Notes under the pieces: generated by a model
What the model saw: the letters and a program-made list of their open reading frames with translations, nothing else
Told to the model about the DNA's origin: nothing
The model's database searches: none
Assembly (NCBI GenBank): GCA_964526355.1
Contig: CAZGJE010000003.1
Coordinates: 1 to 24,426, forward strand
Length of the DNA: 24,426 nt
Origin: an uncultured Candidatus Saccharibacteria bacterium
Lineage (GTDB): Bacteria > Patescibacteriota > UBA1384 > XYA2-FULL-43-10 > 1-14-0-10-43-13
Reading direction: 5' to 3'
Made by a program: the position numbers and the translations under genes
In this document: positions 4,344-24,207 of the stretch, piece by piece
How positions within the stretch are numbered: position 1 is the first letter of the stretch
How the letters are laid out: each line of letters opens with the position of its first letter

Positions 4344-4728
4344 GGGGGTGTATTAGCTTCGACAGCTGGAACATTGAAAACATATCGCAAGCAGGTAAGT
4401 CGGTCGCCTTAAAGCGCTGACAAATCCAAGTGCAAACTCACTTGTTAGCAAAGTAAAAGCTGCCTTCGGTAGCCTTAGCTTTGCGCCAGCTTTAGCTTAA
4501 TTGCTTTAGCCATACGTCCGAGGCTTTTCGACTTCGGGTCACGTGTGTAATATTCGAAATGCAGTTTTATCGGTTTTCAAGCGACTAAACGTAAGATTTA
4601 CTTGAGATAGGACAAAAGTTTCTTGGTGACTTTCCAAGCTTAGTCCGAATAAATTGAAGGTCACTACGCTTGTAGAAAATATGTTTCCAACCAGTTGGAC
4701 GCCGGTGCAACTCCGACCACCTCCACCA
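4344..4728 (+). ncRNA. ssrA: tmRNA (SsrA); tag ORF 4432-4500 ANSLVSKVKAAFGSLSFAPALA*
   Basis: 5' GGGGGTG pairs with 3' CACCTCC-ACCA with the G3.U alanine determinant. T-arm near the 3' end; resume codon GCA; tag ends ALA*. Confidence 0.95.
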
Positions 4729-16171: not shown

Positions 16172-16247
16172 TGGTACCCGCGAAGGGAATCGGACCCCCG
16201 ACCTCTCGGACCGGAACCGAGCGCTCTATCCACTGAGCTACGCGGGC
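16172..16247 (-). tRNA. tRNA-Arg (anticodon CCG), 76 nt, CCA encoded
   Basis: GCCCGCG TA GCTC AGTGGATA GAGC G CTCGG TTCCGGT CCGAG AGGTC GGGGG TCCGATT CCCTT CGCGGGT A CCA folds as a cloverleaf. Promoter TTGAAT-17-TATAAA at 16299-16271. Confidence 0.96.
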
Positions 16248-20624: not shown

Positions 20625-20707
20625 AATGAAATTATACGCTTTTTAGACCGTTTATTCAATTTTGAAATACATAAATTCGCGATGTTATCCTTGCATAAGA
20701 ACACATT

Positions 20708-20736
20708 TTGCGCTATAGTGTCAACATCCAAACTTT
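20708..20736 (+). promoter_or_regulatory. Sigma70 promoter of the reductase-like gene; divergent promoter for EamA at 20659-20631
   Basis: TTGCAT-17-TATAGT on plus; TTGAAT-17-TATAAT on minus. Confidence 0.6.
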
Positions 20737-20775
20737 AGCAATCATGCTAAGTCGACGCACACAAGGGAGGGAGCT

Positions 20776-21957
20776 ATGCAACAACTACTGGAATTAGCGC
20801 AACCGAGAACTATTGAGGGCATTTTCCTCGTTAATTCTGAGACAATCGAACACATGAAGGGTCATGTGGTCAAGAAGTATCCGTTTTTCGCGAAATGGCC
20901 AGCCTGGGCTATCGCACCGCTAATGCAGATCGTGACCTTTCTGAAACCCGACATCTTAAAGATGGGGTTTATCTCGAAGGAGATCGGGACAGCGGGGAAC
21001 GAACAACTTGCCAAACTCTGGTTTGTGGGCGTGCCATTTACACCCAGGATGATGAAGAACTGGTTCCTATCCTGGATTACCATCGTCTTCATGATCCGGA
21101 TTATCCGACACTGGCTCAAGCGCAATGCAATGATAGTGGGTTTGGGCGGCTGGACTGCTATTGTCCGTGACAAAGGCCAGACAATCGCCGAGAAGTTCGG
21201 CTCTCATCTGGCTGTAACGACAGGTAATGCCTTTACTGCTCTGATGGCAGTACTTGGCCTCCGCGCTATGGCTGACAAGGTTGGCTATAATACCGAGACC
21301 ATGACGGCTGCAATTATCGGCGCAGGCGGAAGCTGTGGTCGCAACTGCGCCAAACTGCTGGCGCCGCACGTCAAAAAGCTTTTTCTGGTTGGACGTGCTG
21401 GCAGCGATATTAGCCCTTTGTTCGCGCTTTCAGCCGAAATCATGAAAGCCAACCCCCATTTGGAAGTTTATGTCACAGACATCATCCAGGAAGCGCTTTT
21501 CGAGTCACTTCTCGTAATTACAATTACCAGTGCTACAGACGTGTTGGACATCCAGGCAAGCGACTTCCTGCCAGGAACGATTGTAGCCGACGCCGCTAGA
21601 CCCAGGGATGTGGCGGCAAAGATTGCAGGCAATAAGAAAATCATGGTGATCGATGGCGCAGTTGTTGAAATCCCTGACATAGCTGAGCAAACCTGGTTCT
21701 TCGGCGACTTCCCCGAGGGGATTGTCTACGCCTGCATGGCAGAAACCTGGATTCTGCTCGTCGAAGGCTACGAGTGTGGAGTCTACTCGCTCGGTGATGT
21801 AGAACTCGAATGGATCAAACGGATTGCTGTCATGCCCGAGGCCAAGCGCCTCCGGGCAGCAGGTATTCGTTCGTTCGAACAGCGTGTTACCGAAGATCGG
21901 ATCGCCGAATTCGTCGCGATCATATGCGAGGAACAGGCAAAATTGTGCGTGAAGTGA
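20776..21957 (+). CDS. NAD(P)-dependent oxidoreductase, COG5322 / acyl-ACP reductase (AAR)-like
   Basis: IVGLGGWTAIV, VTTGNAFTA, Rossmann AAIIGAGGSCG, DAARPRD, IDGAVV, VYACMAETWIL (AAR catalytic Cys motif FACFAE). Confidence 0.78.
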   Translation: MQQLLELAQPRTIEGIFLVNSETIEHMKGHVVKKYPFFAKWPAWAIAPLMQIVTFLKPDILKMGFISKEIGTAGNEQLAKLWFVGVPFTPRMMKNWFLSWITIVFMIRIIRHWLKRNAMIVGLGGWTAIVRDKGQTIAEKFGSHLAVTTGNAFTALMAVLGLRAMADKVGYNTETMTAAIIGAGGSCGRNCAKLLAPHVKKLFLVGRAGSDISPLFALSAEIMKANPHLEVYVTDIIQEALFESLLVITITSATDVLDIQASDFLPGTIVADAARPRDVAAKIAGNKKIMVIDGAVVEIPDIAEQTWFFGDFPEGIVYACMAETWILLVEGYECGVYSLGDVELEWIKRIAVMPEAKRLRAAGIRSFEQRVTEDRIAEFVAIICEEQAKLCVK

Positions 21958-21968
21958 GACCCATATCA

Positions 21969-22004
21969 AGGTGGAAGATATTATATCTTTCACCTATTTT
22001 ATTT
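21969..22004 (+). terminator. Intrinsic terminator of the reductase-like gene
   Basis: AGGTGGAAGAT-attat-ATCTTTCACCT then ATTTTATTT. Confidence 0.75.
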
Positions 22005-22013
22005 GTGAAAAAC

Positions 22014-22545
22014 AAAAAATCCCCAGAGGGGAAATTGATATGAAGGTTGCCTGGTGTGGCCCCCGGAAAGCCCGGGGACCACGCTTACGGATCGTGTTTT
22101 CAGTGGCGGCTGCCCGCCTCGAGCCGGTACGTAACCGATGTTTCGGAATTCTTCCGTGACTGTGGGCGCTCTCGCCCGATCTGTGCCGCACCAGCGGCTG
22201 GACTAGGTTGTTTGACCCAGAGAGGAGAAGATAGGGTCACCCCGACATCTCTCTCCGGGTGCCGTGACAGGATGCAAGCTTACACAGGGTGGCGCTTGAG
22301 CAGCGATACCAAATGTTGCGTCGTCTGGCACGAGGGCCAGAGCTGCCACCAAGACGCTTGCGAGGCCTGTCGAGCGGTAGTAAAAGGCTACCCTCTGCAT
22401 AAGCACCTCCAGCGCAGTCGGGACCAGAAGAGTGGTCTAACTCTTTGGTCAAAGGAAAGAAGCGATCATTTTCCAATGGGGAGGCGTTTTAAGCCGCATA
22501 GACCGTGGAACGCGATCACTATAGGGATCCAGCTGGGTACTGGAT
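22014..22545 (-). ncRNA. Candidate large structured non-coding RNA (about 530 nt), family not recognised
   Basis: Dedicated promoter at 22580-22552, putative terminator at 22032-22008, about 13 helices tiling the interval, strand-specific G.U pairs and GNRA loops, no credible ORF. Confidence 0.62.
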
Positions 22546-22551
22546 GGAGAG

Positions 22552-22580
22552 ATAATATCAAAAGATTTTGGCTAAATCAA
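22552..22580 (-). promoter_or_regulatory. Sigma70 promoter pointing into the 22.0-22.5 kb non-coding region
   Basis: TTGATT (22580-22575), 17 nt, extended TGa-TATTAT (22557-22552). Predicted start A at 22545 is the first base of a 5' hairpin. Confidence 0.7.
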
Positions 22581-22624
22581 TATTTCCAATTATATCTGGC
22601 TTTTCAATGTGGTAAAATATATTA

Positions 22625-23422
22625 ATGAACAAGTATTTCCAATACTTTTTGACCACGATGAAGGTCAATACTGCCTACACTGGCAACTATTTTCTCCTGG
22701 TCACCTTCGATCTAGTTTATTTTTTCGTGTTCTTTGCCCTCTGGACTTCCGTATATAAATCGGGCAACATTGTTGAAATCGCTGGCTATACTCTTTCTGG
22801 TATTATTTCATACTATTTCATATCAGAAATAATTTTTAAATTCGCCGATGTGATGACCTCGATGTATGTGAACTGGCAAATCTGGTCAGGGTATTTCACC
22901 AACGATCTAATAAAACCCTGGAATGTGCTATCGATTAGTTATATCGACGCATTCAGCGAAAAAATAATAAATTTGATCGTGTCATTACCTGCCTCCATAA
23001 TCATGTTCCTGATCGCCAGAGAGTTTATTACGCTCCCCTCCGGCCCGAATACTCTGTACCTCGTAATCACAATTATGCTTGGATTCGTTATGAACTGTGC
23101 CTTCAATATCTGCTTGCACGTACTTTGCCTCAAATTTGGCGATCAGGAGTCGAATATCGAGCTTGGAAACTATTTAGCGATGTTTCTAGCTGGCGCCTTC
23201 TTCCCGCTCGCTTTTCTCCCAGAAAAAATAGAATTTATTTTTAATCTCTTGCCCTTTAAATATATTTTTTACGTCCCGGCCAATATATTTTTGAACAAGA
23301 TGAGTCTGCATGAAATCTTAACAGCTTGGGCGATGATAATTTTCTGGTCTGTTATCTTCATTTTGACATACAAAATCATATACAAAAAAACGATCAAATA
23401 TTATACGGGAACGGGAAGATGA
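22625..23422 (+). CDS. ABC-2 family transporter permease (DUF990/ABC2_membrane_6 type)
   Basis: 6 TM; IWSG.FTNDLIKP, FLAGAFFPLAFLP, LPFKYIFYVPANIF, YYTGTGR end. Confidence 0.88.
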   Translation: MNKYFQYFLTTMKVNTAYTGNYFLLVTFDLVYFFVFFALWTSVYKSGNIVEIAGYTLSGIISYYFISEIIFKFADVMTSMYVNWQIWSGYFTNDLIKPWNVLSISYIDAFSEKIINLIVSLPASIIMFLIAREFITLPSGPNTLYLVITIMLGFVMNCAFNICLHVLCLKFGDQESNIELGNYLAMFLAGAFFPLAFLPEKIEFIFNLLPFKYIFYVPANIFLNKMSLHEILTAWAMIIFWSVIFILTYKIIYKKTIKYYTGTGR

Positions 23423-24207
23423 AGAAATTTTTGAGAATCAATCATATCATTTGGAGGAATGCTCTTCTCCGAGATTCCAAGATATCTGGATTTATTTTGT
23501 CGAGCGTGCTGTTTCAGGTATTTGATATTATTAATTCCGTAATTTTTATCATTCTAATATTCATGAATACCAAAACCTTGGGTGGCTGGACCATCTACCA
23601 AGTTCTCTTTCTCTATGCCTTTTCCCAGACAATTAGCATTATCCATGGTGCATGGACAAAGGGAGGATTGAATTCTTTGGCAAATGAGCTGATACGACTT
23701 GGCGACTATGATTTTTATCGGACCAAGCCATTTGATGCCATGACTCTGGTATCGATCAGCAAGCCCAGGGCGTATGTATTGATCAAACTTCTTTTCAATC
23801 TGTCGGTACTCATATACGCCCTAGCGCACTGCGGGCCTCTGCCACTGATAAATTATTTTTGGTTCCTTATTTTATTCGGACTCTCATTCTTTCTGTATTA
23901 CGCGATCAAAGTTATCACCGTCGTCCCCTCTTTCTGGATTATTAAGAGCTGGGGGCTAACTGACCTCATGGACAAACTTTCTACCATAATGCGCTACCCC
24001 GCCAGTGTCTATCCATGGCTCCTGAATTTTCTACTCTCAACCATTCTTCCGATACTGGTTATCACCTACTTGCCCGTCAAAACCCTGCTTTTCGAGCCGA
24101 AGTTGAGTCAAGTCGCGTATATGTTGGTACTGACGATTGTCTTCGTCTTCTTGGCCAGGTTTGTATGGAAGTTGGGCGAAAAAAATTATGGAAGTGCGTC
24201 GAGTTAG
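23419..24207 (+). CDS. ABC-2 family transporter permease, second subunit
   Basis: ATGA overlap with the previous stop; LGGWTIYQVLFL, IRLGDYDFYRTKPFD, RYPASVYP, KNYGSASS end. Confidence 0.88.
   Translation: MKKFLRINHIIWRNALLRDSKISGFILSSVLFQVFDIINSVIFIILIFMNTKTLGGWTIYQVLFLYAFSQTISIIHGAWTKGGLNSLANELIRLGDYDFYRTKPFDAMTLVSISKPRAYVLIKLLFNLSVLIYALAHCGPLPLINYFWFLILFGLSFFLYYAIKVITVVPSFWIIKSWGLTDLMDKLSTIMRYPASVYPWLLNFLLSTILPILVITYLPVKTLLFEPKLSQVAYMLVLTIVFVFLARFVWKLGEKNYGSASS

What the first reader, a model, noticed from the sequence alone, without database searches (positions are those of the whole stretch)
22008..22580. Candidate novel ~530-nt stand-alone highly structured ncRNA
Seen: this interval is clearly GC-richer than the flanking ABC genes and lies between a terminated gene and a divergent operon. 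On the minus strand, TTGATT-17-TGaTATTAT predicts a start at 22545, exactly the first base of hairpin ATCCAG/CTGGAT (22527-22545). A CCCC/GGGG hairpin plus U-tract (22032-22008) would end it. Helices tile the interval: 22467-78 (CATT-GGAA-AATG), 22422-50 (11 bp), 22403-15, 22372-95, a nested multi-helix arm (22266-71/22366-71, 22274-79/22356-61, 22288-93/22345-50, 22324-29/22336-41), a long arm 22215-60 capped by GGG-GUGA-CCC, then 22185-98, 22164-77, 22144-56, 22124-38, 22105-18 and 22058-80. Four helices contain G.U pairs and two have GNRA loops only when read on the minus strand, matching the promoter direction; two helices read slightly better on plus. Knowledge: I find no RNase P, SRP, 6S, T-box, B12, group I or group II core motifs. 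Inference: an independently transcribed ornate RNA, comparable in size to OLE/ROOL-class RNAs but possibly a new class.
Basis: partly seen in the sequence, partly recalled or inferred. Interest (0 to 1): 0.88.

Follow-up and report, generated by a model that had tools for sequence, protein, structure and literature searches.

The report
Expressed orphan structured RNA gene
A small-genome freshwater bacterium carries a separately transcribed, strongly folded non-coding RNA of about 440-535 bases that is abundant in lake metatranscriptomes, matches no known RNA family, and has no relative in any collection searched, so its function is unknown.

Summary
Window 22008-22580 has a minus-strand sigma-70-type promoter and an intrinsic terminator. 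It folds far better than shuffles: z -5.1 for the full stretch and -4.2 for the core, against -0.1 to -0.6 for the equally GC-rich neighbouring gene. It matches no Rfam family even at E 10.

New here:
- Contigs from three freshwater metatranscriptome runs (two studies) lie wholly inside the region: 22086-22525, 22092-22519 and 22124-22278. Both flanking genes have no RNA contigs.
- The two long contigs end where a predicted long-range closing helix ends (22521-22481 with 22120-22086). This suggests a stable core of about 440 nt trimmed from a primary transcript of about 535 nt.
- The RNA and the adjacent acyl-ACP-reductase-like gene form one 1.97-kb, higher-GC insertion that the same-genus genome lacks.

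No homologue turned up in about 560 phylum genomes, plasmids, phages, viral, genome or metagenome contigs, or in searches with translated frames. Covariation is therefore untestable and the RNA remains a singleton.

Rivals still open are an embedded 65-codon ORF with a strong Shine-Dalgarno site (an RNAIII-like dual-function RNA) and transcribed foreign junk.

This scan has noted similar orphan GC-rich RNA genes in other Patescibacteria genomes. None shares sequence words with this one.

The parts
22552..22580 (-). Sigma-70-type promoter. The -35 is TTGATT (22580-22575), followed by a 17-nt spacer and an extended -10, TG-n-TATTAT (22559-22552). The predicted start is near 22545.
   Evidence: Promoter scan, 9 of 12 matches with the TG extension. 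The sequence was also read directly.
22527..22545 (-). 5' leader hairpin of 7 bp with loop ACCCA. It lies outside the RNA-library contigs and may be trimmed off.
   Evidence: Pair probability 0.89. The RNA contigs end at 22525 and 22519.
22086..22525 (-). Core of about 440 nt, the stable and abundant RNA species. A long interrupted closing helix encloses two hairpins, a large multi-arm domain (22413-22197) and a three-way 3' domain (22195-22123).
   Evidence: Metatranscriptome contigs at 22086-22525 (X2), 22092-22519 (X4) and 22124-22278 (X8), with no RNA contigs on either flank. Fold z -4.21, with the centroid close to the minimum-free-energy structure.
22481..22521 (-). 5' strand of the long-range closing helix. 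It pairs with 22120-22086 in about 26 bp spread over six segments separated by internal loops.
   Evidence: The five main segments have pair probabilities of 0.74-0.79; the outermost 2-bp segment has 0.31. The fold was computed before the RNA contigs were seen, and the helix ends match the contig ends.
22086..22120 (-). 3' strand of the closing helix.
22266..22371 (-). Long nested arm made of helices 22371-66/22271-66, 22361-56/22279-74 and 22350-45/22293-88, plus distal helices.
   Evidence: Pair probabilities 0.98-1.00 for the three basal helices.
22215..22260 (-). Long hairpin arm capped by a GUGA tetraloop. A natural variant at 22236 (C to U on minus) turns the loop-closing G-C pair into G-U.
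   Evidence: Pair probability 0.91. The variant is in RNA run X8. The fold is kept on minus (base-pair distance 2) but not on plus (39).
22123..22195 (-). 3' domain: a 9-bp stem closing a junction with hairpins at 22177-22164 and 22156-22144.
   Evidence: Pair probabilities 0.84-0.97.
22203..22410 (-). Embedded small ORF. A Shine-Dalgarno site GGAGGUG (22410-22404) is followed 5 nt after the GGAGG core (3 nt after the full motif) by an AUG (22400), 65 codons and a UAG stop (22205-22203). The N-terminus looks like a signal peptide. Whether it is translated is unknown.
   Evidence: Translation. Codon score 0.13, at the 5th percentile of real-gene windows, with the other two frames at -0.58 and -0.28. 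No homologue and low protein-likeness.
22056..22082 (-). 3' trailer hairpin of 11 bp, G+C-rich, followed directly by ACCA. It lies outside the RNA contigs and may mark a processing site.
   Evidence: Pair probability 1.00. The RNA contigs stop at 22086 and 22092.
22008..22033 (-). Intrinsic terminator of the RNA gene: a CCCC/GGGG hairpin followed by a U-run.
   Evidence: Terminator scan. Pair probability 0.89.
20776..21957 (+). Co-inserted gene for an acyl-ACP-reductase-like, PigE-N-terminal-like oxidoreductase of 393 aa. It is convergent with the RNA gene.
   Evidence: NCBIfam and Pfam hits. It is absent from the same-genus genome together with the RNA.
20641..22606 (.). 1.97-kb insertion relative to the same-genus genome G001. 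There, the EamA and ABC-2 genes are about 128 nt apart (only ~94 nt of it unalignable to the window).
   Evidence: tblastn and blastn of the window against L026.

Best explanation
This is a stand-alone gene for a trans-acting, highly structured non-coding RNA on the minus strand.

Proposed sequence of events:
1. A sigma-70-type promoter starts transcription near 22545, and an intrinsic terminator ends it near 22010. This gives a primary transcript of about 535 nt.
2. The 5' leader hairpin and the 3' trailer (a GC hairpin plus the terminator) are trimmed off.
3. What remains is an abundant, stable core of about 440 nt (22525-22086). Its two ends are locked together in a long interrupted helix, as in other stable bacterial RNAs.

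The core most likely works through its folded shape, by binding or scaffolding protein or by self-assembly, rather than by antisense pairing. It is an accessory gene, acquired together with the neighbouring acyl-ACP-reductase-like gene, and not a housekeeping RNA.

Shown here: transcript presence limited to this interval, non-random foldability, promoter and terminator motifs, insertion status, and absence of any known-family match. Inferred: the strand, the processing, and the mode of action.
For: Expression:
- RNA-library contigs from three runs in two studies lie only within 22086-22525. The flanks 21100-22085 and 22526-23500 have none, although DNA run X1 covers 21100-22632.
- A control stretch containing tmRNA (19% of its length) is held at shares of 0.16-0.32 in RNA runs of the same study. 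The organism's other stable RNA is therefore probably assembled there too.
- The two long contigs end within 0-4 nt of the outer limits of the predicted closing helix.

Structure:
- Fold z is -5.13 (full stretch) and -4.21 (core) on minus, against -3.14 and -3.42 on plus.
- The minus-strand centroid lies close to its minimum-free-energy structure.
- The coding control gave z -0.55 and -0.13.

Strand:
- The region's promoter and U-run terminator are on the minus strand; the only plus-strand terminator is the upstream gene's own.
- The natural variant in X8 keeps the minus-strand fold (G-C to G-U, plus one unpaired site; base-pair distance 2). It disrupts the plus-strand fold (base-pair distance 39).

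Not a known RNA:
- There is no Rfam match.
- RNase P RNA is elsewhere in the genome and tmRNA is elsewhere in the window.

Not the annotated protein:
- The long plus-strand ORF has non-coding codon usage, -0.09 against 0.31 +/- 0.07 for the genome's genes. It is 5.7% Cys and 3.6% Trp.
- It has no relative among 5.8 billion clusters or 1.84 billion representatives, and it scores low on protein-likeness.

Not an antisense regulator:
- Complementarity to the rest of the genome reaches at most 15 nt, E 0.34.
Against: - No homologue was found, so there is no covariation and no evidence of selection on the structure beyond thermodynamics.
- The strand was not measured. Contigs carry no strand information.
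- On the minus strand C exceeds G (135 to 117). The genome's RNase P RNA has G above C, which would suit the plus strand better.
- A 65-codon ORF with a canonical ribosome-binding site lies inside the RNA.
- The 193-codon open frame on the plus strand is longer than in all but 13 of 5000 shuffles. This is unexplained.
- The contig ends come from low-depth assemblies (depth 4.7-10), so they are only rough transcript ends.
Confidence: 0.62

Rival explanations
1. It is a dual-function RNA or small-protein mRNA. The minus-strand transcript encodes a 65-aa secreted or membrane peptide (22400-22203) inside long structured untranslated regions. This is the layout of Staphylococcus aureus RNAIII with hld, or of SgrS with SgrT.
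For: - A canonical GGAGGUG lies 5 nt (from the GGAGG core) upstream of the AUG.
- The 65 codons begin with two Arg followed by a 13-14-residue hydrophobic run and an A-x-A motif.
- The in-frame codon score is 0.13, against -0.58 and -0.28 in the other two frames.
- The one natural variant inside the ORF is synonymous, GAC to GAU.
- High abundance would also fit a strongly expressed small gene.
Against: - The codon score is only at the 5th percentile of real-gene windows and below every window of the co-inserted gene.
- GC at codon position 2 is 0.57, against 0.40 in the neighbouring gene.
- There is no homologue, and protein-likeness is in the range of shuffled sequences.
- The Shine-Dalgarno site is paired in the predicted fold, with probability 0.63-0.75.
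- One synonymous change is not evidence.
- Ala-, Leu- and Val-rich 'signal peptides' arise easily from GC-rich sequence.
Confidence: 0.15
2. It is transcribed foreign junk. The region would be a decaying remnant of horizontally acquired DNA, such as a fragment of a donor's RNA or gene, that happens to carry a promoter and has no function in this host.
For: - It lies in a 1.97-kb higher-GC insertion that the same-genus genome lacks.
- It has no relatives anywhere.
- The same-genus relative does without it.
Against: - The promoter and terminator are cleanly matched, the ends are paired, and folding is strongly non-random.
- It is abundant in several samples and in two studies.
- Small reduced genomes rarely keep and strongly express 0.5 kb of junk (general knowledge).
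Confidence: 0.12
3. It is a plus-strand product. This would be either the 192-aa hypothetical protein that gene callers annotate (22047-22625, its stop overlapping the ABC-2 start as TAATG) or a long structured leader of the ABC-2 operon.
For: - The frame is open for 193 codons, matched by only 13 of 5000 shuffles.
- The stop and the next start overlap.
- Gene callers in two sources called it.
- G exceeds C on the plus strand.
- The plus strand also folds better than shuffles, z -3.1 to -3.4.
Against: - Codon score is -0.09, more than 5 SD below the genome's genes. The composition is Cys- and Trp-rich.
- Only self-hits came back from 1.84 billion and 5.8 billion proteins, and protein-likeness is low.
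- No plus-strand promoter was found, and the only plus-strand terminator belongs to the upstream gene.
- RNA contigs omit the first 39 and last 100 nt of the ORF and the downstream ABC-2 genes.
- The same-genus ABC-2 operon has no such leader.
Confidence: 0.07

Closest known systems
Large 'ornate' bacterial ncRNAs of unknown or emerging function: OLE, ROOL and GOLLD (Rfam families; cryo-EM homo-oligomers in PMC12286853)
   Same: It is a stand-alone gene several hundred nucleotides long, with many helices, high predicted stability, no coding role, accessory distribution and unknown biochemistry.
   Different: There is no covariance-model match even at E 10. There are no associated oap genes, and no prophage or tRNA neighbourhood. 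Oligomerisation is untested.
Staphylococcus aureus RNAIII (514 nt, encodes delta-haemolysin) and other dual-function RNAs
   Same: It has about 0.5 kb of highly structured, abundant RNA. Long-range helices bring distant parts together, and a small ORF with its own Shine-Dalgarno site is embedded in it.
   Different: There is no sequence or model similarity. Translation of the ORF is unproven. Only one C-rich loop (ACCCA) is present rather than several UCCC loops. No target complementarity was found.
Processed stable RNAs with paired 5' and 3' ends (RNase P RNA, tmRNA, 6S RNA)
   Same: It has its own promoter and terminator. The apparent mature species is shorter than the primary transcript, the ends are closed by a terminal helix, and its abundance is probably comparable with the organism's tmRNA in the same libraries.
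   Different: It matches none of these models. RNase P RNA and tmRNA genes are present elsewhere. It is not conserved even within the genus.
Other orphan GC-rich structured RNA genes noted by this scan in Patescibacteria genomes (e.g. e1-993353, e1-1185531, e1-3376960)
   Same: The pattern is the same: a GC-rich, ORF-poor island with its own promoter and terminator in a reduced genome, no Rfam match, and few or no relatives.
   Different: It shares no sequence words with any of them. Those are unchecked notes, not evidence. Here there is direct metatranscriptome support but no relative at all.

Membership tests
Any Rfam 15 family (including OLE, ROOL, GOLLD, HEARO, raiA, RNase P, SRP, 6S, tmRNA, group I and II introns, T-box, riboswitches) | Covariance-model match at or near the family's gathering score | tested here: not met
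   No match in the region at the gathering threshold. At E up to 10 there were only two chance hits of 14.7 and 16.5 bits at the terminator hairpins.
RNase P RNA | It would be the genome's only RNase P RNA | tested here: not met
   A full-length RF00010 match of 182 bits lies on another contig, C52.
SRP RNA or 6S RNA (divergent housekeeping RNA) | Model match, and conservation in close relatives | tested here: not met
   RF00169, RF01854 and RF00013 give no match anywhere in the genome, including this region. The locus is absent from the same-genus genome.
ROOL / GOLLD | Prophage or tRNA-adjacent context | tested here: not met
   The nearest tRNA is at 16172-16247. There are no phage or viral matches for the RNA or the neighbouring gene.
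ROOL / GOLLD / OLE | Formation of an RNA-only homo-oligomer | not testable with these tools
   This needs native gels, SEC-MALS or cryo-EM.
Group II intron (ORF-less) | Domain V/VI match, a GUGYG 5' end, and an intron-encoded protein or a host exon | tested here: not met
   There is no RF00029 or D1-D4 model hit at E 10. The RNA has its own promoter and terminator rather than exons.
Dual-function RNA (RNAIII-like) | An embedded small ORF with a ribosome-binding site | tested here: met
   GGAGGUG, then AUG 5 nt after the GGAGG core, then 65 codons.
Dual-function RNA (RNAIII-like) | The ORF is translated, or conserved as coding | tested here: inconclusive
   Codon score at the 5th percentile. 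No homologue and low protein-likeness. No proteomic data are available.
Protein-coding gene (the annotated 189-192-aa hypothetical protein, plus strand) | Coding-type codon usage and composition; homologues | tested here: not met
   Codon score -0.09 against 0.31 +/- 0.07, with 5.7% Cys and 3.6% Trp. Only self-hits.
Conserved structured RNA family (any new class) | Homologues with compensatory base-pair changes | tested here: inconclusive
   No homologue in any search. The only variation is two SNPs in one RNA contig, both compatible with the minus-strand fold.

The most novel reading that the evidence does not exclude
The RNA and the neighbouring reductase may form a mobile two-gene module in which the RNA is more than a bystander. 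Two readings are not excluded.

(a) It is an RNAIII-like dual-function regulator that also encodes a secreted 65-aa peptide, used by an ultra-small, possibly host-dependent bacterium.

(b) It is an ornate RNA that self-assembles, or scaffolds or presents a substrate to the acyl-thioester (Glu-tRNA-reductase-like) enzyme. In this reading its 3' end is made by cleavage at a minihelix-plus-ACCA element that mimics a tRNA acceptor arm.
Probability: 0.12. Interest if true: 0.8.

Novelty: new member of a known kind. Interest (0 to 1): 0.55.

Why it matters
Large structured bacterial RNAs without a known job are rare, and they have repeatedly led to new biology. OLE, ROOL and GOLLD, for example, were recently found to form RNA-only assemblies.

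This candidate is unusual in having direct environmental expression evidence: it was assembled from small rRNA-depleted lake metatranscriptomes in which its neighbouring genes are invisible. It also sits on a recently gained cassette in a genome of only about 0.8-0.9 Mb, where spare DNA is scarce.

If the many similar orphan RNA genes noted in other Patescibacteria are real, these reduced bacteria may rely on fast-evolving, lineage-specific structured RNAs. That hypothesis can be tested directly with the existing lake RNA samples.

The weakness is that this RNA is a singleton. Without relatives its structure and function cannot yet be pinned down.

Tried and rejected
Homologue searches, all negative apart from self-hits:
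- BLAST of the region against 40 relatives, all 162 genomes of the class and 400 sampled genomes of the phylum. Only chance matches of 21-34 nt came back.
- A single-sequence covariance model of the best-determined arm (22215-22371, model R1) against 150 relatives.
- blastn against plasmid and phage collections.
- nhmmer against the organism's own genome for paralogues.
- Spurious-ORF searches, which use translated frames of the RNA to find DNA relatives:
  - 5.8 billion protein clusters.
  - 1.84 billion representatives with HMMER.
  - Metagenome contigs, searched with two different frames.
  - Genome contigs and viral contigs.
  - The only hits were the window itself and one identical 1065-nt JGI contig whose DNA could not be fetched.
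- An exact look-up of the downstream ABC-2 protein to reach strain variants. It is not on record.

Linkage to the reductase gene:
- Homologues of the acyl-ACP-reductase-like protein reach at most 41% identity.
- The contexts examined in G009, G016 and a JGI contig show no similar RNA. G009 has a small basic-protein gene there instead.
- The association is therefore not conserved.

Other ideas checked and dropped:
- Defence system: no PADLOC hit.
- tRNA-like element: ARAGORN finds none in the region.
- Antisense target: complementarity in the genome reaches at most 15 nt, E 0.34. The 10-11-nt matches to the neighbouring gene are about what chance gives.
- Insertion scars: there are no convincing terminal repeats at 20641 and 22606.
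- Literature: full-text searches found no description of large ncRNAs in candidate phyla radiation bacteria.

Full report
**What is in the sequence.** The interval 22008-22580 lies between two genes.
- Upstream is a plus-strand gene for a 393-aa acyl-ACP-reductase-like, PigE-N-terminal-like oxidoreductase (20776-21957).
- Downstream is a plus-strand pair of ABC-2 permease genes starting at 22625.

It also finds a minus-strand intrinsic terminator, a CCCC/GGGG hairpin at 22033-22020 followed by a U-run. The upstream gene has its own plus-strand terminator at 21969-21995. Two back-to-back terminators therefore mark two converging transcription units, and the minus-strand unit contains no credible protein gene.

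**Is it more than chance?**
- The 538-nt minus-strand sequence folds to -214 kcal/mol, z = -5.13 against dinucleotide shuffles. The plus strand gives z = -3.14.
- For the 440-nt core the values are -4.21 on minus and -3.42 on plus. The minus-strand centroid stays close to its minimum-free-energy structure, while the plus-strand centroid does not.
- A 440-nt control from the neighbouring gene has similar GC. It folds 35 kcal/mol less stably, with z -0.55 and -0.13.
The most important is an interrupted closing helix of about 26 bp that joins 22521-22481 to 22120-22086.
- One correction: the region is GC-richer than the ABC-2 side and the genome (0.57 against 0.36-0.39 and 0.445). It is not GC-richer than the upstream gene (0.51-0.54).

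**Known families.**
- Rfam 15 gives nothing in the region at gathering thresholds. At E up to 10 it gives only two chance hits on the terminator hairpins.
- The genome's RNase P RNA is on another contig, and tmRNA is at 4344-4728 in this window.
- SRP and 6S models match nothing in the genome.
- ARAGORN sees no tRNA-like element here.

**Expression.** The stretch is held by public freshwater metatranscriptomes. I laid three RNA runs and one DNA run on 21100-23500.
- The RNA runs each gave a single contig: 22086-22525 (X2, identical), 22092-22519 (X4, identical) and 22124-22278 (X8, a different study, two differences).
- None of the RNA runs had any contig on either flanking gene.
- The DNA run covered 21100-22632.
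- The flanks therefore serve as the silent control. The signal is a transcript confined to this interval, not DNA carry-over.

A 2-kb control stretch of which tmRNA makes up 19% is held at shares of 0.16-0.32 in RNA runs of the same study. This fits the organism's tmRNA also being assembled there. I could not lay that stretch to confirm which part is held.

The ends of the two long RNA contigs fall within 0-4 nt of the outer limits of the closing helix, which had been predicted before the contigs were seen. The 5' leader hairpin (22545-22527) and the 3' trailer (22085-22010) are not in the contigs. The trailer holds an 11-bp GC hairpin followed by ACCA, and then the terminator.

I infer a primary transcript of about 535 nt that is trimmed to a stable core of about 440 nt with paired ends. 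Contig ends at depth 5-10 are only approximate, so this is inference.

**Strand.** Contigs carry no strand information.
- For minus:
  - the promoter and the U-run terminator;
  - the better z-score and better-defined ensemble;
  - the natural variant in X8. At 22236 it turns the G-C pair closing the GUGA loop into G-U on minus, which would be A-C on plus. At 22196 it hits an unpaired junction base.
  - With both changes the minus fold is kept (base-pair distance 2), while the plus fold rearranges (39).
- For plus:
  - G exceeds C on that strand, as in the genome's RNase P RNA;
  - there is a long open frame.
- I judge minus to be clearly more likely, but it is not proven.

**Coding rivals.** Gene callers annotate a 189-192-aa protein on the plus strand (22047-22625), whose stop overlaps the ABC-2 start.
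- The frame is unusually long: only 13 of 5000 shuffles match it.
- Its codon score is -0.09, against 0.31 +/- 0.07 for the genome's genes and 0.35 for the co-inserted gene. It is 5.7% Cys and 3.6% Trp.
- It has only self-hits among 5.8 billion clusters and 1.84 billion representatives.
- It looks like shuffled sequence to the language-model index.
- The RNA contigs miss both of its ends and the downstream genes.
- I reject it as a protein. The length of the open frame stays unexplained.

A more serious rival is on the minus strand.
- GGAGGUG (22410-22404) is followed, 5 nt after the GGAGG core, by an AUG and 65 codons with a signal-peptide-like start.
- The in-frame codon score of 0.13 beats the other two frames, but sits at the 5th percentile of real-gene windows.
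- No homologue exists and protein-likeness is low.
- The ribosome-binding site is paired in the predicted fold.
- An RNAIII-like dual-function RNA therefore remains possible, at about 15%.

**Evolutionary context.** The genome is 0.82 Mb in 128 contigs. Flanking-gene relatives are candidate phyla radiation genomes assembled from metagenomes.
- The same-genus genome G001 is syntenic on both sides: EamA at 90% and ABC-2 at 81-90% amino-acid identity.
- G001 lacks window 20641-22606 entirely. There the two flanking genes are about 128 nt apart.
- The RNA gene and the reductase-like gene therefore form one 1.97-kb, higher-GC indel. This is most simply a joint horizontal acquisition.
- The RNA is accessory, not housekeeping.
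- The reductase's nearest homologues are at most 41% identical, and those I inspected have no similar RNA beside them. Functional linkage is unsupported.

**Homologue hunt.** Nothing related to the RNA was found in any of these searches:
- BLAST in 40 relatives, 162 class genomes and 400 phylum genomes;
- a covariance model of the best arm in 150 relatives;
- plasmid and phage collections;
- translated-frame searches in protein, metagenome, genome and viral collections.

Only one identical JGI contig exists. Covariation, the decisive test for a structured RNA family, therefore could not be run.

**Mechanism.** No extended complementarity to the genome was found (at most 15 nt), and there are no repeats or guide-like arrays. 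With its paired ends and many stable arms, the RNA most likely acts through its three-dimensional shape. It could serve as a protein-binding or scaffolding RNA, or as a self-assembling ornate RNA of the OLE, ROOL and GOLLD kind (PMC12286853). This step is inferred. The hairpin-ACCA element just 3' of the mature end resembles a tRNA acceptor minihelix and could direct 3' processing, but that is a post hoc idea.

**Verdict.** This is a real, expressed, strongly folded and unclassified RNA gene, and a singleton so far. It counts as a new member of the known kind 'large orphan structured bacterial ncRNAs', not a demonstrated new class. This scan has noted similar orphan GC-rich RNA genes in other Patescibacteria genomes. 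None shares sequence words with this one. Those notes are leads, not support.

Noticed in passing
whole genome G000 and relatives G001, G002, G009: No SRP component is detectable. There is no SRP RNA (RF00169, RF01854), no SRP54 M domain (PF02978) and no SRP54/FtsY GTPase domain (PF00448) in the window's genome. Three near-complete relatives of the same family also lack them, while all 14 control genomes match the protein families. A P-loop motif scan of the organism's own ORFs also shows nothing Ffh- or FtsY-like. This may be a lineage-wide loss of the SRP pathway.
   Followed up: partly
window 20641-22606: The acyl-ACP-reductase-like gene and the RNA gene form one 1.97-kb, GC-richer indel that the same-genus genome lacks. 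A homologue of the reductase in relative G009 is likewise a GC-rich island (0.54 against 0.35-0.40), next to a small basic-protein gene.
   Followed up: partly
window 22047-22625 (+): A 193-codon open frame runs through the whole RNA gene and ends in TAATG at the ABC-2 start. It is longer than in 4987 of 5000 dinucleotide shuffles, yet it has non-coding codon usage and no homologue. It is annotated as a hypothetical protein in public records, which is probably a mis-call. Why the frame stays open is unexplained.
   Followed up: yes
window 22056-22082 and 22052-22055 (-): An 11-bp GC hairpin is followed directly by ACCA, immediately 3' of where the RNA-library contigs stop. It resembles a tRNA acceptor minihelix with a discriminator base and CCA, and might be an RNase P or 3'-processing signal.
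   Followed up: no
window 21977-21988 and 22548-22559: A 12-nt inverted repeat (11 of 12 complementary) brackets the RNA gene. One arm is in the upstream gene's terminator hairpin and the other is in the RNA promoter's -10 region. It may be chance.
   Followed up: no
window 4344-4728 (+): A full-length tmRNA gene (99 bits). A 2-kb stretch around it is partly held by the same lake metatranscriptomes that hold the candidate RNA.
   Followed up: partly
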